A stretch of DNA of 63,977 nt, filler included, from an uncultured Myxococcia bacterium (GTDB taxonomy: Bacteria; CAZTWC01), in assembly GCA_964617105.1 (NCBI GenBank). It is 16 parts of 16 records of this genome, joined end to end, with 100 filler letters (N's around TTAATTAATTAA, not from the genome) between each part and the next. Parts side by side here need not be neighbours in the genome. Positions count along the whole stretch, not along the records: positions 44,771 to 48,579 come from CAZTWC010000342.1; 15 more parts are not named here. One strand, written 5' to 3'. Below are positions 1,693 through 48,679 of this stretch, piece after piece. Made by a program: the position numbers and the translations under genes. Within the stretch, counting starts at the first letter, position 1, and every line of letters starts with the position of its first letter. The notes beneath the pieces were generated by a model, which searched no databases, was not told the origin of the DNA, and was given only the letters and a program-made list of their open reading frames with translations.

Positions 1693-4034
1693 ATGTCAAA
1701 CGGACAAGAACTATTTAAAACCGCACATTTTAATCAGGCTCTTTTGTTCTGGTTTACTTCATTAAAAGAAGATGCCCTGGATTGGGAGATACAGGATGAA
1801 TTGGATTGGGCATTTGAACAGTTGTTCACCATGGATATTGACCGGGATATCAGAGAGAATTTGTCCAAAAAAATAGCCTCCATGCAAAAACTTTTTGGTC
1901 TGGAAGCAGTAGATAAAATCGATATTAAGGATAATAATTTTCATTTAACCAATCCTTTTTGCGCAACTATTCTTGATCATTTTATTTATCTAAGCGATGA
2001 ATACAGCCATAAAATTGTTAAAGTTAATATGCAGGGTGATCTTATTTGGGAGATAGGAGCCCAGTCTCCCCAAAAAGTAGATCTTTTCTATCCTCAGGGT
2101 TTGGCCATTGGTGAATTTAAAAAAGGAGAAGACCACCTGTACTGTTGTGATCTTTGGAACCACTGTATAAAAATATTTTCCCTGGACGGTCAAATGGTTT
2201 ATCAATTTGGCCAATACGGCAGTCAACCGGGAGAATTTAACGAACCCTATGATCTTTCCATCCGGCAAGATAAATTGCTTGTAGCAGATCGATGCAATCA
2301 CCGGATTCAACAATTTGATCTGCAAGGCAATTTTAAGGATTCTTCCGGCCAACGGTGGATAGAGGAAACCGAAGCCCAAAAAAAAGAGCGGTTCTGGCAG
2401 AGGTTTTCTTCATTAACACCTGGTAATTTATCCTTTCAATCCTTTGCGGCAAAACTTCCTATCCATAATAACAGTCTTATCTTTCCTGCAGGAATAACTT
2501 TTGTTGGCAATAATTTAATGGTTACTGACCGTCATAGACGACTATGGCTGGAACCTAACAACCATTACAATTTCTTAAAAGATGAGACCAATAATAACTC
2601 TCAGTCTCCCCGTAATCTTTTTGAAATTTCCAATAGAGTGGCAGTTTATGACGAAATATATAGTCATTTTTTACTTTATGGAGATGGCGGAGATTTTCAA
2701 TTTAAAGTTAAAAAGAATTCTGACAGCAGTCTTATTTTCCCATTAACCGGTAAAAGTGCGGAACAAAACTGTCTGGTTTCTTATAATGTTCAACAAAAAT
2801 CTTTTACCTTAATTAAATTTAAACACAAAACTCCCTCAATTACTGAACTGGAGCAGGCTTTGTCGGTGGTATCTTTTTCTAAAGATATCAGCATGGCCAA
2901 TAATTATTTAACCGATATCATAGAACCGATAAACTTTTATAATCCCAATTTTTGCCAAAATATTCTCTCTCTGTCTCTATCTGGTGCTGAGAACAATGAC
3001 TGCAACGGCCCAGCATTCCTGACCTGGCTGAAAACCTGGGAACAGTTAGAAACAAAGCCGGAAAATCCATCTCCCTTTTTCAGCAGAACTGTAGAAACAG
3101 GCTCTTTCCTGCACTATGATATTGAAGACAAATTGACTGACCTTTTTTCAAAGTTTGATTCATCTATTGATCCTTTGGCTTCCCATGAGGCGGCCAAGTT
3201 CTCTAAAGTTATCAATCAGGATAGTATAACCGATCTGGATAGAACCGAAATAATTGCCTGTACACCTCTTCATTTCGAATTGGAAAAAATCAAAATTGAA
3301 CTTTTCCGGTTTTTGAATTCATTTATAAATAAATTCAAAACCTGGACAAGAGCCTATAATATTGCCAAGTTTTACCAATTGAACTCATGCGGGAAACTTA
3401 TTTTAACTGCCATGCTGAAAAACTGCAGCGCAGTTATCCATCACTATCAATCTCTGTTTATCAATAAAGTTATANNNNNNNNNNGGTTTTTTTACTACCG
3501 CCGCTTTTCATAAACCTGTAATCGATTTTAATAATTGCCACCGTCCTGAAGAATTAATCAAAGTCTATTACTGGCACTGTCTCTTCAGAGATCTATATAG
3601 ACCTGCCATAATCAACAATCTTTTTTTAGAGATCTTTGCCGGTACAGAGATGCTTACCTCTCCAATTGATAATATTAAACCGGGGCGTGAACTTTTTGAA
3701 CCAGATAATTTTTATCATAAGTTCTATCTATGGTCCAAAATTCACCATATGCCTCTATTGGGCCCTCTTTTTTCAGACTTTGAGAACGGCAATCTGGATT
3801 GGGATAACAGCCTGGTTGTCAATAATTTGCTTTTTGAACTTATCTCATTGCCGAATATGGAACCTTTGGATTTTCTAAAGGGTTATTCCCAATTTATCAG
3901 TAACATCCAGACTTTTGACCTCGCTGATTTTACCCAACAGTTAAAAGACTTTAGAGCCCAAATGGAAATATCTTTCCAGCCTAGGTTATCTTTTGTCAAT
4001 CTATCTACTCTTTTAACCGATTTTTTTTCCAAAA
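1693..4034 (+). CDS. Large NHL-repeat (beta-propeller) protein, 3' partial, spanning a 10-N gap
   Basis: NHL repeats LFYPQGLAI..CCDLWNHCIKIF and FNEPYDL..VADRCNHRIQQF. After the gap at 3475-3484 a frame is open from 3485 through ORF 3650 to the contig end, so both ORFs are probably one gene. Confidence 0.65.
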
Positions 4035-9003: not shown

Positions 9004-9135
9004 ATGCCGTCCGGGAATTAACTTCGAACAAAACAACGCGAACCACCGCAGGCGAGTTCGACCGCAGGTCCGAAGCAACTTTTTTCGTTCTTAAAAAACA
9101 GTAGTGCTTATCCTTGATAATTAATGTATGATATG

Positions 9136-9170
9136 CCCCGGAGAAATCTTCTTCTCCGGGGATTTTTTTT
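9136..9170 (+). terminator. Rho-independent terminator-like hairpin between the M23 gene and secA
   Basis: CCCCGGAGAA-atcttc-TTCTCCGGGG followed by A and T8. Confidence 0.7.
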
Positions 9171-9193
9171 ATTCAAAACAGGCAAATGAAATA

Positions 9194-11848
9194 ATGATTG
9201 ACTATATTTTAAAAAAGATATTTGGAACTAGAAATACACGGGAGTTGAAAAAAATCCAACCTTTGTTTGAGCAGATCAACCTGTTGGAGGCAGAAATTGA
9301 AAAGTTGACGGATCAGCAATTAGCGGCAAAGACCCCTGAATTCAAAGAGCGGCTGGATAATGGAGAAAATTTCGACTCCCTTTTGCCAGAAACCTTTGCT
9401 GTGGTCAGGGAGGTGTCAAAACGGGTTTTAAATATGCGCCATTTTGACGAGCAATTAATTGGCGGCATCGTTCTCCATCAAGGAAAAATTGCCGAGATGA
9501 AAACCGGTGAAGGAAAGACCCTGGTGGCTACTCTGCCCGTGTATCTCAATGCCCTTACTGGTGAAGGCGTTCATCTGATCACTGTCAACGATTATTTGGC
9601 CCAACGCGACTCGGCGTGGATGGGAAAAATCTACAGTTTTCTGGGTATGGAAACCGGCGTAATTGTCCACGGCCTCAATGACCAACAACGTCAAAAAGCC
9701 TACCGCGCGGACATCACCTACGGAACCAATAACGAATTTGGATTCGATTATTTACGCGATAACATGAAAGTTGACATTGCCGATTTTGTCCAGCGCCCTT
9801 TGCATTATGCCATTGTGGATGAAGTTGATTCCATCCTGATTGATGAAGCCCGAACTCCGTTGATTATCTCCGGGCCGGCGGAAGAATCCACCAACAAGTA
9901 CTACCAGGTCAACGGCCTGATGTCCAAGATAAAACGGGATATCCATTTTACCGTGGATGAAAAAAGCAAAAGCGCCAGCCTAACCGAGGAGGGTGTGGAA
10001 AAAATTGAAAAACTTATGAACCTGAAAAATCTCTATGATGCAGGTAATATCGAAATTATACACCATGTCAATCAGGCTCTTAGAGCCAACTATGTTTTCA
10101 AGCGGGATGTGGATTATGTTGTGGAACAGGGTAAGGTGGTAATTGTTGATGAATTCACCGGCAGGCTAATGCCTGGTCGGAGATGGAGTGACGGACTCCA
10201 CCAATCTATCGAAGTCAAAGAGGGAGTAAAAATCGAAAATGAGAACCAAACCCTGGCCACCATAACCTTTCAGAACTATTTTCGTATGTACAAGAAATTG
10301 TCTGGCATGACTGGAACCGCTGAAACCGAAGCGGAAGAGTTTGGAAAAATCTATAAACTGGATGTGATGATTATCCCCACCCACATGAGCATGATCCGCA
10401 CCGATGCAGCAGACCAGATATATAAATCTGAGGCGGAAAAATTCAATGCGGTGGCAAATGATATCATCGAAAGACATAAAAACGGGCAACCGATTTTGGT
10501 GGGCACCATCTCTATTGAAAAATCGGAGATGCTGCACAAAATGCTAAAAAGAAGGGGGGTTCCCCACAATATCCTCAATGCCAAGCACCATAAAAACGAA
10601 GCATTTATCATTGCCCAGGCGGGTAGAAAAAAAGCGCTCACCATCTCCACCAACATGGCTGGACGCGGAACCGATATTATGCTGGGCGGCAACCCGGAGT
10701 ATCTGGCCAAAGCCAAGTCCAACCAGGAAGAAGACCCGGAAGGTTTTCAGGAACTTTTGGGAAAATTTAACACAATTTGCCAGAAAGAGAAAAAGGAGGT
10801 CATTGAGGCTGGTGGACTGTATGTACTTGGTACAGAAAGACACGAGTCCAGACGCATCGATAATCAACTCCGGGGGCGTTCAGGACGGCAGGGAGATCCA
10901 GGTTTATCCCGGTTCTATATGAGCATGGAAGACGATTTACTGCGCATTTTCGGCTCTGAAAAGATCCAGGGGTTAATGGAGAGACTTGGTATGGAAGAGG
11001 GACAACCTATTGAACACAAATGGGTTACTAACGCCATAGAAAACGCTCAGCGCCGGGTAGAGGGACACAACTTTGATATCAGGAAGTATCTGCTGGAATA
11101 CGATGATGTGATGAACAATCAACGTAAAACTATCTACAGCCTAAGAAATCAAGTTCTTAGCGGAGAAAATATCCACGATATGGTGCTTGATGGGGTAGAA
11201 GAAGTGATTATTGATATGGTCGACAATTACTGTTCTGACAACGGCCGTATAGATGAATGGGATATCAAGAGTTTGGAGGACAAATTTCATAAGATATTCA
11301 GCCTTAAACTAAACCTAAAAGAATCTGAATATACAAACGAGAGCAACCAGCAACAGTCAAGGCAAAAAATCGAAGAGTTTTTATTTGACCAGACAGAGAA
11401 ATTCCTGATTAAACGGCAAGATGATTTGGGCAACGAACTGTTCCCCAAGGTGGAACAGTTGCTCTTCCTGAACCAAATCGATTCCCAGTGGAAAGATCAT
11501 TTGCAAACTTTGGATCACCTAAAAGAGGGTATAAATCTGAGAGGATACGGACAGAGAAATCCCAAACTCGAATATCAACGGGAAGGTTTTAACCTCTTTT
11601 CCAATATGATGTTTCAAATAAAGCACAACTTACTGGAAATATTGTCCCGGGTGGAGATCAGCCAGGAGGAAGCCCTAGATGAAGTGGGACCTAAAAAAAA
11701 GAGTCATACCATTGAAGGTCGGGGCAATGGAGCAGCTCCCATTGCAAACCAGGGCACTATCAGAAGAGGTCCTAAAGTGGGACGCAATGAACCATGTCCC
11801 TGCGGCAGCGGTAAAAAATATAAAAAATGTTGTGGAAAGGGCAAATGA
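9194..11848 (+). CDS. secA: Preprotein translocase subunit SecA
   Basis: [55 protein letters not shown] motif [13 protein letters not shown]. Start taken at ATG 9194 ([11 protein letters not shown]). Confidence 0.99.
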
Positions 11849-16808: not shown

Positions 16809-18092
16809 CTATTCCTTCACCAGCAAGTGGTAGTTTTTTTTCCCGGCTCTTAGCAGGATACCGATGTCAGCTAGCAAATGCTCACTTCCCACTCTGGCTT
16901 CAAGATCTTTGCAGCGTTGGTTGTTGATGTATGCCCCGCCCTGGGTAACCAATCTTTTGGCGGCGCCCTTTGATTTACAGAGACCGGTGGATACTAACAG
17001 ATCCAGCAGCAATTTTCCCTCAGCCAGAACAGCGTCCGCATTTTCGCTTACCGGGACCTCCTGTATCAGGCAATTGATCACATTTTTGTCAATATTTTCT
17101 ATAGTTCCGCCAAACAGAATAGTTGATACTTTTTGTACTGCATCGGCAGTCTCTTTTCCGTGCACCAGCAGGGTAAATTCGTGTGCCAAATGGCGCTGAG
17201 CCTCCCGGGCTTCCGGCTTTTCCTTGAGCGATTGTTCCAGGGCGGCCAATTGTTCAGACTCTAAAAAGGTAAACAATTTTAACCAGCGGATAACATCGTG
17301 ATCATCCACGTTAATCCAATACTGGTAGAGTTTATAGGGAGAGGTCATTTGCGGATCCAGCCAGATAGCACCTTTTTCGGTTTTACCAAATTTGGTGCCC
17401 GAAGAGGTGGTGAGCAGGGGAAAGGTCAGGCCGTGGGCCTGGGTACCTTTTTTACGCCGGATCAAATCTACTCCAGCGGTAATATTGCCCCACTGATCGT
17501 TGCCGCCGATTTGCAGCAGGCAATCATGCTCCTTGAAAAGATGGTAAAAGTCGTAAGCCTGCAGGATCATGTAACTGAATTCTGTGTAGGATATTCCCTG
17601 CTCCCGATCCTCCAGCCTGGCCCTGACCGATTCTTTGGCCATCATGGCGTTGACCGAAAAATGTTTTCCCACCTCACGTAAGAAATCGACCATGCTATAA
17701 GAGCCCAGCCAATCCCAGTTGTTTACCATGATAGCATTATTGCCATTTTCCGAGTTAAAATCGAGAAAACGGGAAAATTGTTCCTTTAACGCTTTGGCAT
17801 TTTTGGCAATGGTTTCCAAATCCAGCAGTTTTCTCTCATCGCTTTTACCGCTAGGATCACCGATCATACCGGTACCGCCACCGATAACCACCACTGGTTT
17901 GTGGCCGGCCCGCTGAAAATGACTGAGAGCCATGATTGGGATTACATGTCCAAGGTGCAAACTGGGCGCAGTAGGGTCAAAACCGGCATAGATGGTCACC
18001 TTCCCTTTATCCAACTCTTCATCCAGCCCTGTATCGGTGATTTGCTCTATAAATCCTCTTGACTTTAAAATATCTAAAACCGATTTTGCCAT
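16809..18092 (-). CDS. tyrS: Tyrosine--tRNA ligase
   Basis: GFDPTAPSLHLGH (HIGH), LQAYDF, QIGGNDQWGNI, KFGKT (KMSKS), C-terminal S4 domain. Confidence 0.99.
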   Translation of the reverse strand: MAKSVLDILKSRGFIEQITDTGLDEELDKGKVTIYAGFDPTAPSLHLGHVIPIMALSHFQRAGHKPVVVIGGGTGMIGDPSGKSDERKLLDLETIAKNAKALKEQFSRFLDFNSENGNNAIMVNNWDWLGSYSMVDFLREVGKHFSVNAMMAKESVRARLEDREQGISYTEFSYMILQAYDFYHLFKEHDCLLQIGGNDQWGNITAGVDLIRRKKGTQAHGLTFPLLTTSSGTKFGKTEKGAIWLDPQMTSPYKLYQYWINVDDHDVIRWLKLFTFLESEQLAALEQSLKEKPEAREAQRHLAHEFTLLVHGKETADAVQKVSTILFGGTIENIDKNVINCLIQEVPVSENADAVLAEGKLLLDLLVSTGLCKSKGAAKRLVTQGGAYINNQRCKDLEARVGSEHLLADIGILLRAGKKNYHLLVKE

Positions 18093-20619: not shown

Positions 20620-21255
20620 TCAGGGGTATGGGCCGCCATTCCATGTAATCGATCCACCATTAAGGCGCACTATATGCTTATCAGCCATACGAAGGGCATC
20701 TCCCTCATTGAGTAGATAAATCCCGTATGTGTCATAAGTGGAACCATCGGGGTAAGCTTTATCAGTTGAAACAGACCATAGACTGTTGGGAGTCCATTTC
20801 TCACGTTTGGCACTTACAAAATCTCTATACCACATCCCTCCATAAGTTAAATTCATCCGTTTGTTCAGGAAATAAGTCACCGCCTGTCCATCCACTCCGA
20901 CAGTATTGTCGGTTACCTTATCACGTATTGTGCTTAGAGGAGTTTTGTAATCGTTTTGTACCTTGTGATTATTCTTTCCTTCAAAAAAATGCTGATAAGA
21001 GATTGTTAAATCTCCGCGGCTTTCTATTTCAGGTAATATTAACTTCTTTTTTTTGCTATTGCCATTCTCAACCTTAGTCTGCTCTTTTTTTTCCTTATCT
21101 TCCGCAACATCCGCTGCTACAGCAGCAGGTATTCTGAGATAGAGAAACAAAAAAATCCATAATAAGAAAATAACAATACTTATGAATGAATAGTCAAGTC
21201 TCTGACAAAATAATGAAGATAATTTATACCTTACTGAAATTAAATGGTAGCGCAT
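20620..21255 (-). pseudogene. TonB-dependent receptor-like relic: signal peptide joined to a mid-barrel fragment
   Basis: Signal peptide and charged linker, then strands LTYGGMWYRDFVSA..YPDGSTYDTYGIYL; far too short for an intact receptor. Confidence 0.5.
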
Positions 21256-22511
21256 TATTTTGATCTACAAGGGCGAAACCCGAGCCAGTCGGTGCGGGTG
21301 CCGGGCGATTTGTTGCCGCGATTCGCCGAACGGCTGCTCAGAGCGTCGTGGGCCCAACTGCCACCGCGAGTCAGGCGGTAAAAGCCACTAGAAGGTCCCA
21401 CAGGGTCTGTTACATCTCCTCCATAACTTTTATCATACCAATCCCACGCCCACTCATAAACATTGCCACTCATGTCATATAATCCCCAGTCATTGGCATC
21501 CTTGCCTTTTACCACATGGGTGTAATCGCTTGAATTGTATTTATACCAACCTATCTTATCCATATTTGGATCACTACTGGTGCTGGTAATACCTCCATTA
21601 TAAAACGCCGTTGTCGTGCCCGCACGTACCGCATACTCCCACTCCGCCTCTGTGGGTAATCGATAACCACTGCAATCCTGTGGCTTGCTGAACTTGGACT
21701 TTAAACTGCATGTCAAACAAGTTAAATCACAATATCCTTCACCGCACGAGGCATGACTGCAATTACCTGCACATTCAAAACATTCTTCAACTCCTTTACT
21801 AATGGACAATTTGTTGCAATATAATAACGCCTCATGCCAATTCACCTTCTCCACCGGGCAATCATCTCCACAAGATAAATAATCGCTCGGATTATAGCCC
21901 ATCAATTTTTTGAACTGACCCTGCGTCACCTCGGTTGATTGTATCTCGAAGTTGTACGTCAACGTCACCTGGTGCTGAGTCTCATCCGATTCATTGGCCG
22001 CCTCGCCAGAGGGGCTGCCCATGGTGAAAGTACCAGCGGCGATCTTGACAAATACAGAGGTTGTATCACCTGAACCTCCTTCACAGTTCGCGTTATCATA
22101 CCCAGTACAGTCATTCTTGCACTTAGCATCTCCGCTTGTATATGTTGAATCTATGTCCTTACAACCCTTTGTGTCACCGTCGCATATTTCACTTTTGCCT
22201 TTATGACCATCTCCACACACTGTCTGGCATTTTGAATCCTTACATTGCAAGGGCTCAAAACAATCAGCAGTTTGGGAACAGGTATCACCCTCAACACTTT
22301 TTGTGTTTTTCGAGTTACCTTCTTCACATACACATATATCCCATCCACTTCCATCTGATTTACAGACCTGAACACCCTTTTTATAAGCAGTACAGTTACA
22401 GACCAGGGTTGAGCCTGGCGTACAAGCCTTGTCATCCTCAGTTCCGCAGTTTGCTAAAAACAGACTCAGAGCAATCAATAAAAACATTGTGAATGATTTT
22501 TGCATAATCAA
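21255..22511 (-). CDS. Cys-rich lipoprotein with FGE-sulfatase (CLec-fold) domain
   Basis: FLANC lipobox; AGTFTMGSP, TEVTQGQF, YRLPTEAEWEYA, NDWGLYDMSGNVYEW, RGGSW, GFR. Confidence 0.93.
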   Translation of the reverse strand: MIMQKSFTMFLLIALSLFLANCGTEDDKACTPGSTLVCNCTAYKKGVQVCKSDGSGWDICVCEEGNSKNTKSVEGDTCSQTADCFEPLQCKDSKCQTVCGDGHKGKSEICDGDTKGCKDIDSTYTSGDAKCKNDCTGYDNANCEGGSGDTTSVFVKIAAGTFTMGSPSGEAANESDETQHQVTLTYNFEIQSTEVTQGQFKKLMGYNPSDYLSCGDDCPVEKVNWHEALLYCNKLSISKGVEECFECAGNCSHASCGEGYCDLTCLTCSLKSKFSKPQDCSGYRLPTEAEWEYAVRAGTTTAFYNGGITSTSSDPNMDKIGWYKYNSSDYTHVVKGKDANDWGLYDMSGNVYEWAWDWYDKSYGGDVTDPVGPSSGFYRLTRGGSWAHDALSSRSANRGNKSPGTRTDWLGFRPCRSK

Positions 22512-30503: not shown

Positions 30504-32614
30504 CTAGATTAACGAAACATCCAGAGCCAGGCTTTGCAGTTCTTTTATCAAAACATTAAAAGATTCCGGTAAACCCGCTTCCAGGGTATTTTTACCTTTC
30601 ACAATGGATTCGTAGGTTTTTGTCCTCCCTGATACATCATCGCTCTTTACCGTTAAAAATTCTTGCAGGCTGTAAGCCGCACCATAGGCTTCCATGGCCC
30701 AAACTTCCATTTCACCCAGTCTTTGCCCGCCAAACTGGGCTTTTCCACCCAGGGGTTGCTGGGTTACCAAAGAGTATGGCCCAATAGATCTGGCATGGAT
30801 TTTATCATCTACCAGGTGATGAAGTTTGAACACGTACATGGTGCCAAGCGTAATATCGGAATCAAAGGCTTCGCCACTAATACCGTCGTACAGGGTGGTT
30901 TGACCTTTTTCAGACAGTCCAGCCAATCCTAGAAAATGACGGATATCCTCTTCAGTTGCCCCATCGAAAACCGGGGTTTCAAAATGGATTCCTTTTTTTA
31001 ATTTCCGACACATTTTGATTACTTCATCGTTGTTTAACTGCTCTATAAATTCATGTATAGATTCGGATACAAAAATTTGTTTTAATTTATCCCTCATCTT
31101 ATCCACGAAAATCATTCCCCGTTCCGCCAGTTCCGCCAATTGTTTTCCGAGAGAATGGGCTGCCCAACCAAGGTGGGTTTCCAGAATTTGGCCAACGTTC
31201 ATACGAGATGGAACCCCCAGAGGATTCAGGACTATATCAACCGGGATGCCATCGGCAGTGTAGGGCATATCCTGTTCTGGTAAAATACGAGAAATAACCC
31301 CTTTGTTTCCATGCCGGCCGGCCATTTTGTCTCCCACCGCCAGTTTACGTTTGATAGCAACATAAACCTTAACCATCTTTATAACTCCTGGCGGTAGTTC
31401 ATCCCCTTTTTTCAAGCGGGTGATTTTTTCATTAAACACCAATTCAACTAATTCCAATTGCTCAGTCATGGATTCTAAAATCTTGGGTATTTTTTCTTTA
31501 ACACTGGCTTTGGTAATCTCCAGGTTTTTCAGAAGGTGCAAGGGAATATCTGCCAGCATCTCTTCGTGTAAGGTGGTATCTTTAGCGATTAGGACTTCTT
31601 TTTTAGAATCGATAAGACTGGCATTGGCTACTTGATTTTTAAGCAAAGCGCAGATTTTAGTTTTGGCACTATCCTTAATTATTTTATTTTCGTCTTGACG
31701 GTCTTTATTAAGACGTACTTCTTCCTGGTCTTCAATGTCTTTAGCCCGGTCATCCTTTTCAATACCCTTGCGGGAAAATATTTTGGCTGAGATTACCGTG
31801 CCTACCACGCCTGGTGGAACTTTTAGTGAGGAATCCCTTACATCACCCGCCTTTTCACCAAAGATTGCCCTTAACAGTTTTTCTTCTGGGCTAAGTTGGG
31901 TTTCTCCTTTGGGGGTAATTTTTCCCACCAGGATATCTCCAGGTTTTACTTCCGCACCAATTCGGATTATTCCGCTTTCATCCAGTTCGCCGAGAGCCTC
32001 TTCTGACACATTGGGGATATCCCTGGTAACATCCTCGGGCCCCAATTTGGTATCTCGGGCTATACACTCAAATTCTTCAATGTGGATAGAAGTATAATAA
32101 TCCTCATGTAATAATTTCTCGGAAACCAGGATAGAGTCCTCAAAGTTGTAACCGCCCCAGGGCATAAAAGCCACAGTAACATTTTTGCCCAATGCCAATT
32201 CACCCATATCAGTAGCCGGACCATCGGCTATGATCTCTCCTGCCCGGATAAGATCACCTTTTTCAACTATAGATTTTTGATTTATGCAGGTGTTTTGGTT
32301 GGAACGCTGGTACTTGGTTAAAGTATAGATATCTATTTCACTGGTGAGGTCCTGTTCCTCTATAGTATTTTCAAGGTCATTAACCACTCTGATGACGATT
32401 CTGACCCCATCAACCGATTCTACTACTCCGCTTCTTTTTGCCACTATGGTAACGCCGGAGTCCCGGGCTACGGTTTTTTCTATACCGGTTCCAATAATGG
32501 GTGCATCAGTTTTTAACAGAGGGACAGCCTGGCGCTGCATGTTTGATCCCATTAGAGCACGGTTGGCGTCATCATTTTGCAAAAAGGGGATCAGCGAGGC
32601 AGCCACACTAACCA
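30504..32614 (-). CDS. rpoB: RNA polymerase beta subunit (5' partial)
   Basis: [40 protein letters not shown]. Confidence 0.99.
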
Positions 32615-44670: not shown

Positions 44671-44798
44671 NNNNNNNNNNNNNNNNNNNNNNNNNNNNNN
44701 NNNNNNNNNNNNNNTTAATTAATTAANNNNNNNNNNNNNNNNNNNNNNNNNNNNNNNNNNNNNNNNNNNNAATATGTGAATGTGAATGTGTTCCGATT

Positions 44799-45104
44799 TT
44801 ATGACCCATATCTAATAATTTTTTCGCCACAAATACCCTTTATCCCTAACACAGAAATTCCACAATGGGAGGCAGGATATCGATTTTCTCCCCCAAATAT
44901 TGCTGAAAGTTTGGTATATGATTCCCGGCCAAATTGCCCCATTGCGCCAATGTGGGCAAAACCGCCGGCATTTTGTCTCGAATTCCGGTTGATAGCAAAT
45001 TTATCATCAACTTGTTTTGATAACTCTATCGCCGTTTCCATCTCTTTTACAGATATTTTTTTATCTTCCTGTAGTGGTAATAGTTTCACTTTGACTCTTG
45101 TCAT
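44799..45104 (-). CDS. Putative RiPP precursor B (101 aa)
   Basis: Leader resembles precursor A (MxR[IV]K[IV]..EMxxA[LI]); NRYPASHCGISVLG matches A's NGYPQGNCGISIFG; AGGAG upstream. Confidence 0.7.
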   Translation of the reverse strand: MTRVKVKLLPLQEDKKISVKEMETAIELSKQVDDKFAINRNSRQNAGGFAHIGAMGQFGRESYTKLSAIFGGENRYPASHCGISVLGIKGICGEKIIRYGS

Positions 45105-45153
45105 TATAATACATTGCTCCTTTTCTCCACTGCCCTTATGGTCTTATTGATCT

Positions 45154-45221
45154 ATGGGTCTGTTGGACTCATGGGTCTGTTGGACTCATGGGTCTGTTGG
45201 ATTCATGGGTCTGTTGGATAG
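45154..45221. repeat. 17-bp tandem repeat x4, plus one degenerate copy at ~45138
   Basis: ATGGGTCTGTTGGAYTC-like units at 45154, 45171, 45188, 45205. Confidence 0.95.
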
Positions 45222-45248
45222 CGACCATCCCGGGTAAGGCAAATGATT

Positions 45249-46676
45249 TTATCCTTTATCACTTTTCCAATACTCCTCTACAAGGGCCTTGTTAACAAAG
45301 GAGACATCACACAATTTTTGGGTCTGTTTATAAAGATTGCCCTGGTTTTCATTAAAATTACGGGCAAAACACATAGAACAAAACTGGAAAGCTTTACATT
45401 TAAGACAATCGGGAAAATCGGACCATCGAATAGCGCGAAGATGTTGTAACTTGTCAGATTTATGCCAAAGATCTTGTAAAGATACCTCCTGGGCATTGCC
45501 TAAATTATAACCGATAAAACCAGAACAGGGATAGTAATTTCCGTAGGCCGACAAACAAATACAATCAATTCCTATGCCACATACCGGTTTATCAGCAAAA
45601 ATATGAGAGGGAATATCCTTTTTATTTGATTCAACCGATTTTAAATAGTGATCACCATAAGAGAGCATCTCCCCAATTACCGCCTCAATATCATCAATAT
45701 CTAAAGAGTGCTGCAGGTTATCGGTTTCAAAATTTATTCTCCCCAACATGATAAAATCGGTTACCGCCTTAATATTTCGTTTAGCGGCCCACTGGAGAAC
45801 ACTTTGATAAGAGTGCCGATTTTGTTTCATTATTGGGCAACTTATATACAATTGGATGTGGGCCTGTTGCAATTTTTCAATAGTTAGCAACATCTTTTGT
45901 AACGAACCATCAACGGCAGTTATGCTATCATGAACTTTATCTTCTAAACTAAAAATAGACATTTGGACCGTATTGACATTGATCTCCTTTAGAAGTTCAA
46001 TATGCTCATCGGTGATTACTGTTCCATTGGTTTGGATGGTTATGGTAAGATCCTGTTCTCTGGCTTTATAGAGAATTTTATCGATATCTTTGTGTAGAAA
46101 GGGTTCTCCGCCGGAAATGGTGAGAGAGAGAGTCCCCATTTCTGGAAGTTGGTCAAGAACCTCAAAGGCGAGTTTTGTATCCAGTTCAACCAGTTCTCTG
46201 TTTGGAGGATAGTAGCAGTGGAGACAGTGATGGTTACACAGGGTGGTAAGATCCATTTGCATTGCAAATACTGTTGGATTTTGGGCAAAATAGGCGGCAA
46301 AATATCTCGCTGAATCTATTGGCACCCCAGAGGGTTTCTCCGATAGGGGTTTAATAGGGGTAGAATATATATTGGCCTGGCGTGCCTCTAACTCCTGCTT
46401 CGATTTTCCAGTAACAATAAACTTTTCTGTTTTTAGAATAGTTACCAGTTTTAGAAAGTTTTTCTCCACTTGGTGTTCTGGGCAATTTTTTAGCCTCAAT
46501 TTTAGTTGTGAAAGGATAGAGTCGATAGTTTGCGGTTGTCTGGTAATGGGCTTAAGGTAGACTAACTCTTTTTGATCAAATAGGTGATCAAGCCTGGTTG
46601 TTTGATTCACCAAATAGCCAAATTTTTGGTAAAATCGTATAAAGGAGTCATTCCCTAATTGGATTAGTTTCATCAA
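45249..46676 (-). CDS. Radical SAM/SPASM peptide maturase 2 with probable N-terminal RRE (PqqD-like)
   Basis: CNHHCLHC, SGGEP, QTNG; SPASM CGIG..YYPC..CLKC....CSMC..C; ~100-aa N-terminal extension. Confidence 0.88.
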   Translation of the reverse strand: MMKLIQLGNDSFIRFYQKFGYLVNQTTRLDHLFDQKELVYLKPITRQPQTIDSILSQLKLRLKNCPEHQVEKNFLKLVTILKTEKFIVTGKSKQELEARQANIYSTPIKPLSEKPSGVPIDSARYFAAYFAQNPTVFAMQMDLTTLCNHHCLHCYYPPNRELVELDTKLAFEVLDQLPEMGTLSLTISGGEPFLHKDIDKILYKAREQDLTITIQTNGTVITDEHIELLKEINVNTVQMSIFSLEDKVHDSITAVDGSLQKMLLTIEKLQQAHIQLYISCPIMKQNRHSYQSVLQWAAKRNIKAVTDFIMLGRINFETDNLQHSLDIDDIEAVIGEMLSYGDHYLKSVESNKKDIPSHIFADKPVCGIGIDCICLSAYGNYYPCSGFIGYNLGNAQEVSLQDLWHKSDKLQHLRAIRWSDFPDCLKCKAFQFCSMCFARNFNENQGNLYKQTQKLCDVSFVNKALVEEYWKSDKG

Positions 46677-46695
46677 TTATTATTTAGCACCATTA

Positions 46696-48216
46696 TTATA
46701 ATGATATAGGACCTTTTGAAGATTTCATTAATTTAGTAAATGCATCGGGGCCCATGCCGCCGATTTTAGCATTTAGATAGAGGTATGCTTTCACCTCTTC
46801 TTTGGTTCGCTCACATTGTATGGCGATGGGTTCATCTTCTTTTCCATAGGCAGCCAAGCTACGGGCAATACAGCAACCGCCACATGAAAAGCGAACCCAA
46901 CAATCTTGGCATTTGGGTTGATTGAAAACATTTGATGTAACCAGGCTTTGAATCGGTTCCCAATTGGATATTTGGCCATCCTTCACATCACCAATGCAGT
47001 ATTGATCTTCATTAAAGTAGACGCAAGGAAAGATGCGGCCATCCGATTGAAATGCCAGTTGGGTAAGTCCCAGGACACAGCGGCATAATTTTCTTTTCCC
47101 AACTTTACGAAAGTTCATTTCGGTCAAAAACAGGCTGTCCATTTGGGGAATTACACCACTATTTGCCTGGTCAATAATGTTGTCTACCTCTTCAGAAAGT
47201 TCTTTTTTATATTGCGAAATGGTATCAAGGGAGAGAACTTCGTTGTGCTTTCCGCCAATATAACCAGAGAAAAAGTTATAAAATACAATGATCTCTTTAA
47301 AACCAAATTCTCTAAAAAATTCAAAGGTATCCTTCATGCTAGCGCCAGGATCAGCCAATACTGCTCTGGCTCCGATCCGGCCCGGCAGAGCCTTAAGCAT
47401 TCTTTTGATATTTTTAACAATAATAGCATGAGAAGGTTTGCCATTTTGAAAATGCCGATAGGCATCATGGCTCTCAGCTTTGCCGTCGATACTAACCATT
47501 ATTTCGAAATTATATTCTTTAGATAGTTTTTCTATCTCATGGTTCCACAAGGTCCCATTAGTATCAATTAGATATTCAAACTCCAGACCTTTCTGCTCTC
47601 CACGCTGGGCAGCATATTGGGCAAAAGTTTTGAGCCCTTTTAAGTTTAAAAAGGGCTCTCCACCGTAAACAATAATTTTATGTTTTTTTTGTGTGCCGCT
47701 GTTGTTGACAATAAAATCAACCACCCCTTTAAGATGCTCTGGAGTAGGCTCAAGAGGATTTTCTTCGCCTAACAATCCCCCCTCGTTCCAGCAATAACTA
47801 CAGCTCAAATTGCACCTTCGGGCAAAGTAGACAAAATACTCTTTGTGACTGTTTTTCTGGGCTTCGATGAGTTTCGGAAGGTCCTTGACATCTTCTGCCA
47901 TCGCCTTGAAAAGTTGTTGATCTTGTATCATATTCTGAATACTCGCCTGAATGGCATCATCCAAGGCGAGTAGACGGGTATAGGCCTGATTGATTTCTTC
48001 GAGTCGGTAACGGCTGTAGCACTCAGGGTTAATGTTAATAGTATTGCCAGTTTGATTGAGAAACTGGTCAACTAAAAAGGCGGTTACTGGATATAACTCT
48101 ACCCCCTTTCCATTGGAAATAATATAAAGAAAGGAGGTATCCTTATATTCAAGTAGGCGCACATTTTCCCTGGTCAGATAAGCAGGCCTGTTCAAAACAA
48201 CTGGATTAGATGTCAT
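46696..48216 (-). CDS. Radical SAM/SPASM peptide maturase 1 (CteB/QhpD/anSME-like) with probable N-terminal RRE
   Basis: CNLSCSYC, YGGEP, TNG, SIDG; SPASM CRCVLG..FPC..CQDCWVRFSCGGCC..C. Confidence 0.9.
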   Translation of the reverse strand: MTSNPVVLNRPAYLTRENVRLLEYKDTSFLYIISNGKGVELYPVTAFLVDQFLNQTGNTININPECYSRYRLEEINQAYTRLLALDDAIQASIQNMIQDQQLFKAMAEDVKDLPKLIEAQKNSHKEYFVYFARRCNLSCSYCWNEGGLLGEENPLEPTPEHLKGVVDFIVNNSGTQKKHKIIVYGGEPFLNLKGLKTFAQYAAQRGEQKGLEFEYLIDTNGTLWNHEIEKLSKEYNFEIMVSIDGKAESHDAYRHFQNGKPSHAIIVKNIKRMLKALPGRIGARAVLADPGASMKDTFEFFREFGFKEIIVFYNFFSGYIGGKHNEVLSLDTISQYKKELSEEVDNIIDQANSGVIPQMDSLFLTEMNFRKVGKRKLCRCVLGLTQLAFQSDGRIFPCVYFNEDQYCIGDVKDGQISNWEPIQSLVTSNVFNQPKCQDCWVRFSCGGCCIARSLAAYGKEDEPIAIQCERTKEEVKAYLYLNAKIGGMGPDAFTKLMKSSKGPISL

Positions 48217-48260
48217 ATAGAGTTATACCTTAATCATAAGTTCCTTCAATTACAAGCACT

Positions 48261-48572
48261 TTAATCACAAGCACCTTCTGGCGCACTGTGACTACAAGAG
48301 GGGGCCATTCGTCCGCCACCACCATGTCGACCTACAGCGTTTTGAATATTGCCCCAGGAACCAACCTGTCTACCGCCATCACCGCCACCACCAAAGATAC
48401 TAATACCGCAATTTCCCTGGGGATAGCCGTTAAATCTGCTGTTAGGATCCCTTCTAGACCCCCGTCCACGACCTCGTCCACGGTTGAACCGGAATCCTCC
48501 CAGAGCATTACGCATCTCTTCTTCGGTAACTTCATGATTCTCGGTTAAGTCGGTAATTTTAATTCTAGCCAT
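48261..48572 (-). CDS. Putative RiPP precursor A (103 aa) with double-glycine leader
   Basis: MARIKITDLTENHEVTEEEMRNALGG leader, then a Gly/Arg-rich core with 3 Cys; 44 nt upstream of maturase 1. Confidence 0.85.
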   Translation of the reverse strand: MARIKITDLTENHEVTEEEMRNALGGFRFNRGRGRGRGSRRDPNSRFNGYPQGNCGISIFGGGGDGGRQVGSWGNIQNAVGRHGGGGRMAPSCSHSAPEGACD

Positions 48573-48679
48573 TTTGATCNNNNNNNNNNNNNNNNNNNNN
48601 NNNNNNNNNNNNNNNNNNNNNNNTTAATTAATTAANNNNNNNNNNNNNNNNNNNNNNNNNNNNNNNNNNNNNNNNNNNN

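What the first reader, a model, noticed from the sequence alone, without database searches (positions are those of the whole stretch)
44799..48572. Candidate new RiPP class: two radical SAM/SPASM maturases flanked by two precursor peptides
Seen: four co-oriented genes, precursor A, rSAM1, rSAM2 and precursor B. Both enzymes have CxxxCxxC, GGEP, complete SPASM cysteine sets and ~100-aa N-terminal extensions. Precursor A has a clear double-glycine leader (EEEMRNALGG). Established: rSAM/SPASM enzymes with RRE domains install thioether (sacti/ranthipeptide), cyclophane and other crosslinks. Inference: two different maturases act on these peptides. The precursors match no family I recognise (not SCIFF, PqqA, MftA, Nif11 or NHLP). 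The contig breaks 7 nt upstream of A, so transporter and peptidase genes may be missing.
Basis: partly seen in the sequence, partly recalled or inferred. Interest (0 to 1): 0.88.

Follow-up and report, generated by a model that had tools for sequence, protein, structure and literature searches.

The report
Rare radical-SAM peptide cluster, two precursors
This small marine contig carries a fragment of a modified-peptide gene cluster in which two radical SAM enzymes sit between two related precursor peptides from a rare, unnamed family; the kind of system is known, but this peptide family and what is done to it are not.

Summary
One 3,809-bp contig (44771-48579) carries four minus-strand genes: preA, rSAM1, rSAM2 and preB. 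Neighbouring sequence in the window belongs to other contigs.

- **Enzymes:** both are three-domain enzymes with a peptide-recognition domain (RRE), a radical SAM core and a SPASM domain. rSAM1 is most like CteB, PapB and the nif11-type maturases. rSAM2 is structurally closest to SuiB. Neither reaches any NCBIfam cut-off.
- **Peptides:** preA and preB are paralogues sharing an N-terminal leader and a [Y]P-x3-CGIS-x2-G motif.
- **Rarity:** a profile of this peptide family found only 10 credible matches among 1.84 billion representative proteins. Two carry true Nif11 leaders. One is fused to the C-terminus of an rSAM2 homologue.
- **Conserved context:** all three related loci with DNA (L081, L082, L099) pair an rSAM2 homologue with a preB-type peptide. 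L099 also has a preA-type peptide, a peptidase-exporter gene and a TolC-like gene. The second radical SAM enzyme differs in every locus.

The rSAM2-peptide link is therefore well supported, while rSAM1's role rests mainly on adjacency. The chemistry is unknown; a thioether from the invariant Cys is my best guess. I rate it a new variant of a known kind. "New RiPP class" cannot be decided without chemistry.

The parts
44771..48579 (.). The single contig that holds the whole finding. It is bounded on both sides by N44-TTAATTAATTAA-N44 spacers.
   Evidence: N-run table; sequence at both ends.
48261..48572 (-). preA, an A-type precursor of 103 aa. It has the leader MARIKITDLTENHEVTEEEMRNALGG, then an Arg/Gly-rich stretch, the YPQGNCGISIFGGGG motif, and a Gly-rich tail with Cys93 and Cys102.
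   Evidence: ORF. BLASTP to preB gives E=9e-8. Score against the family profile is E=4.3e-16. The leader is 48% identical over 27 residues to a peptide in L094 (E=4e-8). It opens with the same nine residues, MARIKITDL, as the A-type peptide in L099.
48495..48572 (-). preA leader, residues 1-26, ending in a double glycine. This is the presumed cleavage site for a C39 peptidase-exporter.
   Evidence: Sequence. In alignments A3 and A5 this GG aligns with the VAGG of the Nif11-led relatives. Cleavage itself is inferred.
48399..48410 (-). CGIS motif of preA, residues 55-58.
   Evidence: These columns are invariant in the 11-sequence alignment A5.
46696..48216 (-). rSAM1, 506 aa: an RRE-like N-terminal domain, a radical SAM core and a 7-Cys SPASM domain, of the CteB/PapB/nif11-maturase type.
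   Evidence: NCBIfam best hits are TIGR04064 (198.1 bits, cut-off 518.7) and PapB (192.4, cut-off 340). Pfam. AF2 mean pLDDT 88.5. Foldseek top hit is CteB 5wgg, E=4e-26, TMt 0.81 over 489 columns. phmmer against CteB gives 2.1e-30. The nearest database relative, P0003, is 36% identical.
45249..46676 (-). rSAM2, 475 aa: an RRE, a radical SAM core and a SPASM domain. It belongs to an unnamed family that pairs with CGIS peptides elsewhere.
   Evidence: All NCBIfam hits fall far below cut-off; the best is AhbD at 116.5 bits against 500. There are about 90 full-length relatives at 27-55% identity. PqqD (PF05402) is detected in 11 of 21 aligned family members but not in this protein. AF2 mean pLDDT 91.1. 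Foldseek top hit is SuiB 5v1t, E=2.4e-18.
45154..45218 (.). 17-nt tandem repeat, 3.8 copies, inside the 144-nt spacer between rSAM2 and preB. Function unknown.
   Evidence: Tandem Repeats Finder score 123, 97% matches; sequence.
44799..45104 (-). preB, a B-type precursor of 101 aa. It has a leader, a conserved module (GGFAHIGAMGQFGRESYTKLSAIFGGENRYPASHCGISVLG) and a short tail with Cys92.
   Evidence: ORF. An AAGGAG sequence lies upstream of the ATG. Homologues: L081 peptide by tblastn, E=1e-16; L099 peptide by BLASTP, E=6e-17. Profile score E=9.4e-42. The last residues are uncertain, because variant P0129 diverges after ...IIRYG.
44844..44966 (-). Conserved module of preB, residues 47-87, including CGIS at residues 81-84 (44853-44864). 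It is proposed to hold the enzyme recognition segment and the modification site.
   Evidence: Invariant columns in A5: F49, G59, R60, S62, F70, P77, C81, G82, I83, S84 and G87. The same module is fused to the C-terminus of the rSAM2 homologue P0033.

Best explanation
The contig is a fragment of a RiPP gene cluster belonging to a rare, unnamed family that I call CGIS peptides.

**Shown**
- preA and preB are paralogues. They share a leader (M-[AT]-R-[IV]-K-[IV] ... E-M) and an aromatic-P-x3-C-G-I-S-x2-G motif.
- preB also carries a roughly 25-residue conserved segment upstream of the motif: F-x-H-x-G ... G-R-x-S-Y-x-K-[LF]-S-A-x-F.
- rSAM2 belongs to the one enzyme family that accompanies these peptides wherever DNA context is available.

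**Inferred**
1. The N-terminal RRE of rSAM2 binds the conserved segment.
2. Its radical SAM and SPASM clusters modify the CGIS motif. Most probably this is a thioether from the invariant Cys to a nearby carbon, as in sacti- or ranthipeptides.
3. rSAM1, a CteB/PapB/nif11-type enzyme, adds further thioether links using the extra tail cysteines (preA Cys93 and Cys102, preB Cys92).
4. A C39-peptidase ABC exporter encoded beyond the contig ends removes the leader after the double glycine and exports the product.
For: **Enzymes**
- Radical SAM and SPASM domains and motifs are present in both.
- Confident AF2 models match RRE-containing RiPP maturases over nearly their full length. rSAM1 matches CteB (E=4e-26). 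rSAM2 matches SuiB (E=2.4e-18), followed by CteB and SkfB.

**Peptides are real and related**
- preA against preB gives E=9e-8.
- Alignment A5 of 11 sequences has invariant F, GR, S, F, P, CGIS and G columns.
- The profile search of 1.84 billion representatives returned 11 hits at E <= 1e-3, of which 10 are credible.

**Link between rSAM2 and the peptides**
- In L081 the homologue (47% identity) is followed 48 nt later by a preB-type peptide.
- In L082 the homologue (38%) is followed 122 nt later by a Nif11-led CGIS peptide.
- In L099 the homologue (52%) lies between a preA-type and a preB-type peptide.
- In P0033 the conserved module is fused in frame to the enzyme's C-terminus.

**Motif as the modification site**
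- The A-type peptide of L099 repeats SYGGSNCGISIFGGGG twice.
- Four B-type members (P0132-P0135) end at, or a few residues after...NCGISILG.
- Distant rSAM2 relatives (31-40% identity) sit beside 35-56-aa peptides bearing a similar GSYAAGC motif in at least 14 of 23 loci.

**rSAM1**
- Its best family and structure matches are all Cys-thioether-forming enzymes: the nif11-type maturase, PapB, the SCIFF maturase, QhpD and CteB.
- L082 also pairs a nif11-type SPASM enzyme (TIGR04064 at 454 bits) with a CGIS peptide whose tail has an extra Cys (GSCSGVA). L081 and L099 have neither that enzyme type nor a tail Cys.

**Export**
- L099 has a cNMP-C39-ABC exporter gene (TIGR03796-like, 189.7 bits, cut off by the locus end) and a TolC-like gene within about 4 kb.
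Against: - No chemistry is known for any member, so the thioether is a guess from invariant residues and enzyme resemblance.
- rSAM2's closest solved structure, SuiB, makes a C-C rather than a C-S bond. Its best HMM hits (AhbD, NirJ2) are not peptide enzymes.
- rSAM1 is not a conserved partner. The second radical SAM enzyme is of a different family in each of the four loci. rSAM1's only close relative, P0003, could not be seen in its genomic context.
- The correlation between tail Cys and enzyme type rests on only four loci.
- The core is unusually conserved for an exported antimicrobial peptide.
- Pfam PqqD is not detected in the window's own rSAM2.
- The P0033 fusion was seen only as a predicted protein, so a sequencing or gene-calling error cannot be excluded.
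- No exporter or peptidase gene lies on this contig.
Confidence: 0.6

Rival explanations
1. The architecture is the same, but rSAM2 installs something other than a thioether at the motif. Candidates are a carbon-carbon or cyclophane-type link involving the conserved aromatic residue, or an oxidation or epimerisation. In that case the invariant Cys would serve only to ligate the auxiliary cluster during catalysis.
For: - The best structural match of rSAM2 is SuiB, a Lys-Trp C-C crosslinking enzyme.
- By sequence it is also near PqqE and MftC-type models (77.7 and 78.8 bits).
- An aromatic residue 4-5 positions before the Cys is conserved in both the close and the distant peptide families.
Against: - Tyr is replaced by Phe in P0133 and P0136, so phenol chemistry is unlikely.
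- The only invariant side chains near the motif that could react are Cys and Ser.
- SkfB and CteB, both thioether formers, score almost as well as SuiB.
Confidence: 0.22
2. The B-type peptide is the precursor of a conserved small molecule or peptide with a housekeeping-like role, such as a redox cofactor or a signal comparable to PQQ or mycofactocin. It would not be a variable antimicrobial.
For: - The core is nearly identical across distant sources, with YPGSNCGISILG in L081, L099 and P0132-P0135. Such conservation is typical of cofactor precursors.
- rSAM2 resembles PqqE- and MftC-type enzymes as much as it resembles bacteriocin maturases.
- The module is fused to the enzyme in P0033 without a leader.
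Against: - Members carry export-type leaders: Nif11 with VAGG in L082 and P0136, and the GG leader in preA.
- L099 has a peptidase-exporter gene and a TolC-like gene nearby.
- The family is extremely rare and patchy, which does not fit a cofactor.
- No dependent oxidoreductase genes were seen next to it.
Confidence: 0.12
3. rSAM1 does not act on preA or preB. It belongs to a neighbouring or composite system whose own substrate lies beyond the contig end, and only rSAM2 matures the CGIS peptides.
For: - The partner radical SAM enzyme is not conserved among the four loci.
- L081 looks like two systems side by side: a PpiC-related fragment, a GG peptide and a TIGR04463-like enzyme.
- rSAM1 has almost no relatives and none could be seen in context.
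Against: - rSAM1 sits between preA and rSAM2 with gaps of 44 and about 20 nt, which looks like one operon.
- The window's peptides have extra tail cysteines that the relatives lacking a CteB/PapB-type enzyme do not have.
- L082 repeats the combination.
Confidence: 0.18
4. preB is a small accessory subunit of rSAM2, comparable to free-standing PqqD, and not a substrate. The fusion in P0033 would then reflect an enzyme-subunit relationship.
For: - Gene fusion is more usual between an enzyme and its subunit than between an enzyme and its substrate (general knowledge).
- The module is about 40 residues long and highly conserved.
Against: - rSAM2 already has its own RRE.
- The same module is carried behind genuine Nif11 leaders with GG sites.
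- preA, which lacks most of the module, keeps only the CGIS motif, and L099-A repeats that motif. This pattern fits a substrate.
Confidence: 0.05

Closest known systems
CteB (SCIFF/thermocellin maturase, PDB 5WGG) and PapB-family ranthipeptide maturases
   Same: rSAM1 has the same three-domain build (RRE, radical SAM core, 7-Cys SPASM). CteB is its best structural and sequence match: Foldseek E=4e-26 with TMt 0.81-0.86, and phmmer 2.1e-30. PapB is its second-best HMM at 192.4 bits. By my recollection of the literature, and per the entry title of 5WGG, these enzymes make Cys thioether links.
   Different: Scores are far below the family cut-offs: PapB 340, SCIFF maturase 425. Identity to CteB is about 20%. 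The peptides are not SCIFF or freyrasin-like and match no model.
TIGR04064 nif11-like peptide radical SAM maturase with Nif11-leader precursors (Haft 2011, PMC3023750; passages read)
   Same: This is rSAM1's top HMM hit (198.1 bits). A related locus, L082, combines a near-member of TIGR04064 (454 bits), an rSAM2 homologue and a CGIS peptide behind a true Nif11 leader. Haft describes the same mixing of leader families with different maturases.
   Different: rSAM1 scores well below the cut-off of 518.7. The window's peptides do not match the Nif11 leader model at E <= 0.1. TIGR04064 was defined from genomic context only, and the passages I read report no chemistry.
SuiB (streptide maturase, PDB 5V1T) and the sactipeptide synthases SkfB and AlbA
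   Same: rSAM2 shares the RRE-radical SAM-SPASM fold. Foldseek gives SuiB E=2.4e-18 over 482 columns and SkfB 1.3e-16. phmmer gives SkfB 6.3e-14. The AlbA model scores 76.7 bits.
   Different: Identity is only 17-19%. All HMM scores are far below cut-off (AlbA 850). The substrate family is unrelated. The last SPASM cysteine spacing is CX2CX5CX2C.
Unnamed rSAM2-family clusters with short GSYAAGC peptides, from Bacteroidales-type and other metagenome-assembled genomes
   Same: The enzyme family is the same at 31-40% identity over the full length. A small Cys-bearing peptide with an aromatic residue 4 positions before a Cys lies beside the enzyme in at least 14 of 23 loci.
   Different: The peptides are 35-56 aa, mostly lie upstream of the enzyme, and have no CGIS module and no GG leader. 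An amidohydrolase-like gene with an HxH motif follows the enzyme in seven loci I read (L002, L003, L013, L014, L023, L085, L086). No second SPASM enzyme was seen except in L001. None of these peptides matches NCBIfam.
Borosin-type enzyme-precursor fusions such as OphMA (recalled; not tested here)
   Same: In P0033 the conserved peptide module is fused in frame to the C-terminus of its presumed maturase. This resembles the self-modifying methyltransferase-core fusions.
   Different: The enzyme class is different (radical SAM rather than methyltransferase). Only one case is known, it was seen only as a predicted protein, and the window itself encodes separate genes.

Membership tests
Radical SAM / SPASM superfamily | CX3CX2C cluster motif, Radical_SAM (PF04055) domain, and a SPASM domain (PF13186) with the 7-Cys pattern. 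| tested here: met
   Both proteins meet all three. PF04055 scores 50 and 93.8 bits against a cut-off of 29.5. PF13186 scores 22.0 and 30.9 against 21.5. Motif positions are, and the cysteines are invariant in A1 and A4.
RRE-dependent RiPP maturases | An N-terminal winged-helix peptide-recognition (PqqD-like) domain. | tested here: met
   The evidence is a predicted fold only. The AF2 models show several beta strands followed by helices in residues 1 to about 100. They superpose over about 480 columns on the RRE-bearing enzymes CteB and SuiB. The PqqD HMM hits 11 of 21 rSAM2-family members but not the window's own protein. Peptide binding was not shown.
TIGR04064 nif11-like peptide radical SAM maturase | HMM score at or above the curated cut-off of 518.7 bits. 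| tested here: not met
   rSAM1 scores 198.1 bits.
PapB family ranthipeptide maturase (NF047865) | HMM score at or above 340 bits. | tested here: not met
   rSAM1 scores 192.4 bits and rSAM2 70.0 bits.
SCIFF system (TIGR03974 maturase plus six-Cys-in-45 peptide) | Maturase HMM score at or above 425 bits, and a SCIFF precursor. | tested here: not met
   rSAM1 scores 161.5 bits. The peptides have 3 and 2 Cys and match no model.
Nif11-leader RiPP precursors (TIGR03798) | Leader HMM score at or above 32.3 bits. | tested here: not met
   preA and preB give no hit at E <= 0.1. The relatives L082 peptide (45.4 bits) and P0136 (37.1 bits) do meet it.
PQQ and mycofactocin systems (PqqE TIGR02109, MftC TIGR03962) | HMM score above cut-off (381.35 and 265 bits), and a PqqA or MftA precursor. 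| tested here: not met
   rSAM2 scores 77.7 and 78.8 bits. The peptides match no model.
ACGX-repeat system (TIGR04340) | HMM score at or above 400 bits. | tested here: not met
   rSAM2 scores 70.7 bits. The resemblance of A-C-G-I in some members to ACGX is only a recalled lead.
Sactipeptides / ranthipeptides (as chemical classes) | A Cys sulfur to alpha-carbon or non-alpha-carbon thioether in the mature peptide. | not testable with these tools
   This needs mass spectrometry and NMR of the modified peptide.
CGIS-peptide family (defined here) | Invariant F ... GR-x-S ... F ... P-x3-4-C-G-I-S-x2-G, and a neighbouring rSAM2-family enzyme. | tested here: met
   preB scores E=9.4e-42 and preA E=4.3e-16 against the profile. 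Both were among the four sequences used to build that profile, so their scores are partly circular. Independent members score between 7.4e-16 and 1.2e-7. The invariant columns are listed. The neighbouring enzyme is present in the window, L081, L082 and L099.

The most novel reading that the evidence does not exclude
CGIS peptides are substrates for chemistry not yet described. An rSAM2-type enzyme would act on the nearly invariant aromatic-P-G-S-N-C-G-I-S-I-L-G end to make a conserved peptide-derived cofactor or signal rather than a variable antibiotic. In some lineages the enzyme would carry its own substrate as a C-terminal tail and modify itself.
Probability: 0.15. Interest if true: 0.8.

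Novelty: new variant of a known kind. Interest (0 to 1): 0.55.

Why it matters
Radical SAM/SPASM enzymes that modify ribosomal peptides keep yielding new bond types. Most such finds start from an enzyme with an unrecognised substrate family, and this work defines one.

- **A defined substrate family.** A conserved module of about 40 residues ends in CGIS. It has a fixed partner enzyme family and interchangeable second enzymes.
- **A recurring layout.** The two-peptide arrangement occurs in two unrelated organisms.
- **A possible self-modifying form.** One member appears to be an enzyme-substrate fusion.

Together these give a compact, testable set for co-expression: two peptides and two enzymes, all under 510 residues. 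The unusually conserved core raises the question of whether the product is an antibiotic at all. If the chemistry proves to be an ordinary thioether, the result is one more ranthipeptide- or sactipeptide-like family.

Tried and rejected
**Searches that found nothing or were unavailable**
- No whole genome is held for the window, so other copies, exporters and taxonomy could not be looked up directly.
- The search for related loci with rSAM1 in genomes matched 14 stretches, none confirmed.
- The metagenome scan with the preB variant P0129 matched 162 stretches, none confirmed.
- preA alone in the word-indexed search found only itself.
- The listing of cluster members gave no names.

**Profile searches in sampled genomes**
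- The A3 profile in 401 genomes of the phylum of G002 gave only two weak hits, each with a stop codon inside. One of them (L094) proved to be leader similarity only.
- Of three hits in 401 genomes of the phylum of G001, two were weak (E about 4-5e-4, stop codon inside) and I did not follow them up.

**Uninformative results**
- Complex prediction of rSAM1 with preA gave no answer (score 0.02 against a mark of 0.32). It counts neither for nor against binding.
- No RNA holder was listed for the contig.
- The protein-atlas search on preB returned TPR clusters at 0.91 with low recognition, which I read as chance.
- Promoter and terminator scans were no better than shuffled sequence: 10 found against 10.6 expected, and 4 against 3.1.
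- P0137, a 901-aa repeat protein, was rejected as a chance profile hit.

**Literature**
- The words YAAGC, CGISILG, NCGIS and CGISV gave 174 papers. None of the 15 listed was relevant, and CGISILG showed no occurrence in any of them.
- TIGR04064 appears only in Haft 2011.
- A Bacteroidales RiPP mining paper (PMC10352776, passages only) describes a different, CteB-like cluster.

**Taxonomy**
- The window's rpoB fragment is 65% identical to that of G002 and 57-62% to four further genomes matched over its full length. Five others matched only in pieces. I did not place the organism.

**Rejected readings**
- That the small ORFs are chance frames: rejected because homologues exist elsewhere.
- That the genes flanking the contig in the window are neighbours: rejected because of the spacers.

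Full report
**1. What is there**

The window is not one piece of genome. It is a chain of about 4-kb contigs joined by N44-TTAATTAATTAA-N44 spacers. The finding occupies exactly one contig, 44771-48579 (3,809 bp), so the genes on either side in the window say nothing about it.

Four ORFs lie on the minus strand:

| Gene | Coordinates | Length |
|---|---|---|
| preA | 48572..48261 | 103 aa |
| rSAM1 | 48216..46696 | 506 aa |
| rSAM2 | 46676..45249 | 475 aa |
| preB | 45104..44799 | 101 aa |

The gaps between them are 44 nt, about 20 nt and 144 nt. The last gap holds a 17-nt tandem repeat of 3.8 copies. The ATG of preA is 7 nt from the contig end.

Short low-depth contigs from four marine or seawater metagenome runs of two studies match the contig at 100% identity. 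None spans it, and one of the runs may be the source sample. No whole genome is held for the window. An rpoB fragment elsewhere in the window is at most 65% identical to the ten genomes I compared it with. I leave the organism unplaced.

**2. The enzymes**

Both proteins carry Radical_SAM and SPASM domains above Pfam's cut-offs. Both have CX3CX2C (residues 135 and 147), GGEP (185 and 189) and a full set of SPASM cysteines. These cysteines are invariant among relatives. Neither protein reaches the cut-off of any NCBIfam model.

*rSAM1*
- Its best family scores are the nif11-like peptide maturase (198 bits, cut-off 519), PapB (192, cut-off 340), the SCIFF maturase (162) and QhpD (144).
- The AF2 model has mean pLDDT 88.5. 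It superposes on CteB over 489 columns, with E=4e-26 and TMt 0.81-0.86.
- It is nearly an orphan. The nearest protein in the 5.8-billion set, P0003, is 36% identical, and the next is at most 29%.

*rSAM2*
- Its best family scores are AhbD (116.5 bits, cut-off 500) and NirJ2 (109.6), followed by many peptide maturases.
- The AF2 model has mean pLDDT 91.1. It is closest to SuiB (E=2.4e-18), then CteB and SkfB.
- It has about 90 full-length relatives at 27-55% identity. PqqD is detectable in 11 of 21 aligned members, though not in the window's own copy.

Both models begin with a strand-rich sheet followed by helices, as in the RRE of their structural matches. The two enzymes are not paralogues of each other beyond the shared superfamily.

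**3. The peptides are real and form a family**

preA and preB match no Pfam or NCBIfam model, but they match each other with E=9e-8. They share the start M-[AT]-R-[IV]-K-[IV], an E-M pair in the leader, a GG, and the motif Y-P-x3-C-G-I-S-x2-G.

*How the family came to light.* The first clue was an alignment of close rSAM2 relatives. P0033, 46% identical to rSAM2, carries a C-terminal tail that is plainly homologous to preB residues 46-88.

*Loci from the metagenome scan.*
- **L081:** an rSAM2 homologue (47% identity) is followed 48 nt later by a 98-aa preB homologue (tblastn E=1e-16), then by another SPASM enzyme.
- **L082:** the locus holds a nif11-type SPASM enzyme, a B12-radical SAM enzyme, a carbamoyltransferase-like gene and an rSAM2 homologue (38% identity). 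A 146-aa peptide follows, with a true Nif11 leader (TIGR03798 at 45.4 bits, cut-off 32.3) and a core ending ...GGYGGACGISVSGSCSGVA.

*How rare it is.* A profile of four peptides was searched against 1.84 billion representative proteins. It returned 11 hits at E <= 1e-3, and one of them is a repeat protein that I reject. The credible hits are:
- preA and preB;
- P0130 and P0131, close to the L081 and L082 peptides;
- the tail of P0033;
- P0132-P0135 (78-91 aa), which end at or just after ...NCGISILG;
- P0136, which has a Nif11 leader at 37.1 bits.

The 11-sequence alignment has invariant F, GR, S, F, P, C-G-I-S and G columns. The family is therefore genuine and very rare.

**4. A second organism has the same two-peptide layout**

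I searched the profile in 401 genomes of one phylum. This gave one strong hit, G633 at E=7.9e-26. The surrounding 20 kb (L099) encodes the following, in order on one strand:
1. a PpiC-related protein (TIGR04500-like, 53.6 bits, below cut-off);
2. a 72-aa peptide that opens MARIKITDL exactly as preA does, has a similar leader ending in GGG, and then repeats SYGGSNCGISIFGGGG twice;
3. an rSAM2 homologue 52% identical to the window's, which reads the same as P0025, a protein one source labels Kiritimatiellaeota;
4. a B12-radical SAM C-methyltransferase (TIGR03975 at 567.5 bits, cut-off 281.85);
5. a 94-aa preB homologue (E=6e-17).

A TolC-like gene and a divergent exporter gene lie within about 4 kb. 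The exporter has cNMP-binding domains, a C39 peptidase domain and an ABC part, and it is cut off by the locus end. L081 also has a PpiC-related fragment and a small GG peptide upstream of its rSAM2 homologue.

The recurring unit is thus an A-type peptide, an rSAM2-family enzyme and a B-type peptide. The additional radical SAM enzyme is interchangeable:

| Locus | Additional enzyme(s) |
|---|---|
| Window | CteB/PapB-like SPASM enzyme (rSAM1) |
| L081 | TIGR04463-like SPASM enzyme |
| L082 | nif11-type SPASM enzyme plus B12-radical SAM enzyme |
| L099 | B12-radical SAM C-methyltransferase |

**5. More distant relatives**

rSAM2 relatives at 31-40% identity are common in genome and metagenome collections. 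In at least 14 of the 23 such loci I examined, they sit beside 35-56-aa peptides of the form M-x-x-Y-K-K-P-x-L-x-A-K-N-x-P-x-G-S-Y-A-A-G-C.... Seven of the loci I read also have an amidohydrolase-like gene. None of the six such peptides I scanned matches NCBIfam.

These peptides share with CGIS peptides an aromatic residue 4-5 positions before a Cys. I take this as a hint that the enzyme family acts there.

**6. How it most likely works**

*Shown*
- The domain builds of both enzymes.
- The homology among the peptides.
- The conserved pairing of rSAM2-type enzymes with the peptides, in 3 of 3 other loci plus one fusion.

*Inferred*
- rSAM2's RRE binds the conserved F-x-H-x-G...G-R-x-S-Y-x-K-[LF]-S-A-x-F segment of preB. 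How preA, which keeps little of that segment, is recognised remains open.
- rSAM2's clusters modify the CGIS motif. I favour a thioether from the invariant Cys for three reasons. Cys is the only invariant strongly reactive side chain. Tyr can be Phe (P0133, P0136). Thioether-forming enzymes are among the closest matches.
- rSAM1's nearest families all make Cys thioethers, so it probably uses the extra tail cysteines found in the window's peptides. L082, which has a nif11-type SPASM enzyme, also has a tail Cys. L081 and L099, which lack that enzyme type, do not. This is four loci only and is merely suggestive.
- Leader removal after GG and export by a C39-ABC transporter are inferred from the leaders and from L099.

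*Rivals*
- Non-thioether chemistry by rSAM2.
- A cofactor or signal rather than an antibiotic, suggested by the unusually conserved core.
- rSAM1 serving another substrate.
- preB as an accessory subunit (unlikely).

**7. Comparison with what is known, and novelty**

The system works like known radical SAM RiPP pathways: sacti- and ranthipeptides, streptide, and the Nif11/NHLP mix-and-match systems of Haft (passages of PMC3023750 read). It is not a member of any named family I tested; each HMM cut-off was missed by a wide margin. The motif words gave no relevant paper among those listed in the full-text library, and supplements could not be read.

I rate it a new variant of a known kind. It is an unnamed precursor family with a dedicated, unnamed enzyme family, a recurring two-peptide layout and a possible enzyme-substrate fusion. 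Whether it is a new RiPP class depends on chemistry that cannot be determined here.

**8. Limits**

- The contig is short and its ends are unreliable. A variant of preB, P0129, diverges after ...IIRYG.
- The contexts of most family members could not be fetched.
- The P0033 fusion was seen only as a predicted protein.
- The complex prediction for rSAM1 with preA gave no answer.
- No RNA data were available.

Noticed in passing
window 1-63977: The window is a concatenation of about 16 contigs, each near 4 kb, joined by N44-TTAATTAATTAA-N44 spacers, plus two 10-N gaps. Adjacency across spacers means nothing. Other contigs carry SecA (9128-11848), TyrRS (16809-18092) and an rpoB fragment (30504-32606).
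   Followed up: partly
window 45154-45218: A 17-nt tandem repeat (consensus ATGGGTCTGTTGGACTC, 3.8 copies, 97% matches) fills much of the 144-nt spacer between rSAM2 and preB. Its function is unknown. It could be regulatory or an assembly-prone repeat.
   Followed up: no
P0033 (protein only; residues 408-476): An rSAM2 homologue (46% identity, N-terminally cut) has the conserved preB module fused in frame to its C-terminus, without the leader. This may be a self-modifying enzyme-substrate fusion or a sequencing or gene-calling artefact. Its contig could not be fetched.
   Followed up: partly
L001-L015, L023, L083-L089: Distant rSAM2 relatives (31-40% identity) in Bacteroidales-type, Treponema-type and other metagenome-assembled genomes sit beside 35-56-aa peptides of the form M..YKKP.L.AKN.P.GSYAAGC...C..CE. 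Several loci also have an HxH amidohydrolase-like gene. Neither peptide nor hydrolase matches NCBIfam, so this looks like a separate unnamed RiPP-like family.
   Followed up: partly
L083:3795-4070, L084:3304-3579, L089:1489-1764, L091:480-755: A 91-aa ORF with three repeats of C-[KI]-YCGATTS-x-GGSCSKSPSKGHV lies just downstream of an rSAM2 relative in these metagenome contigs. It may be a further Cys-rich substrate.
   Followed up: no
L094:121-273 and L094:1501-1707: Two small peptides have leaders very like that of preA (MKRIKIKDLPKDARITKEEMRRVMGG and MARIKIKDIPEERKASKEEMKKVFGG) but unrelated cores. They lie next to a peptide-arginase-like gene (FlmR/OhkR family, 183.5 bits, below cut-off). 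The leader type is therefore shared among different RiPP-like systems.
   Followed up: partly
L099:14034-14252 (minus strand): The A-type peptide of this genome repeats the unit SYGGSNCGISIFGGGG twice after a first ...CGGGISIFGGGG. It was not among the hits of the profile search of representative proteins.
   Followed up: partly
window 44771-44805 and P0129: A 107-aa variant of preB from another assembly is identical up to ...IIRYG and then reads differently. The window contig ends here in an ATGTGA repeat (44774-44790). The last residues of preB and what follows it are therefore uncertain.
   Followed up: partly
window 48494-48579: One short public contig (run X4, record 32, 195 nt) overlaps the last 86 nt of the contig and runs 109 nt beyond the preA start. 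The upstream sequence therefore exists in public data, but its letters were not shown.
   Followed up: no
window 1693-3513 and 21255-22511: Other contigs encode a protein with weak similarity to the ScyF NHL/PEP-CTERM family (68.6 bits, below cut-off) and a protein with a formylglycine-generating-enzyme-like C-terminal domain (PvdO/GldK-like hits, below cut-off).
   Followed up: no
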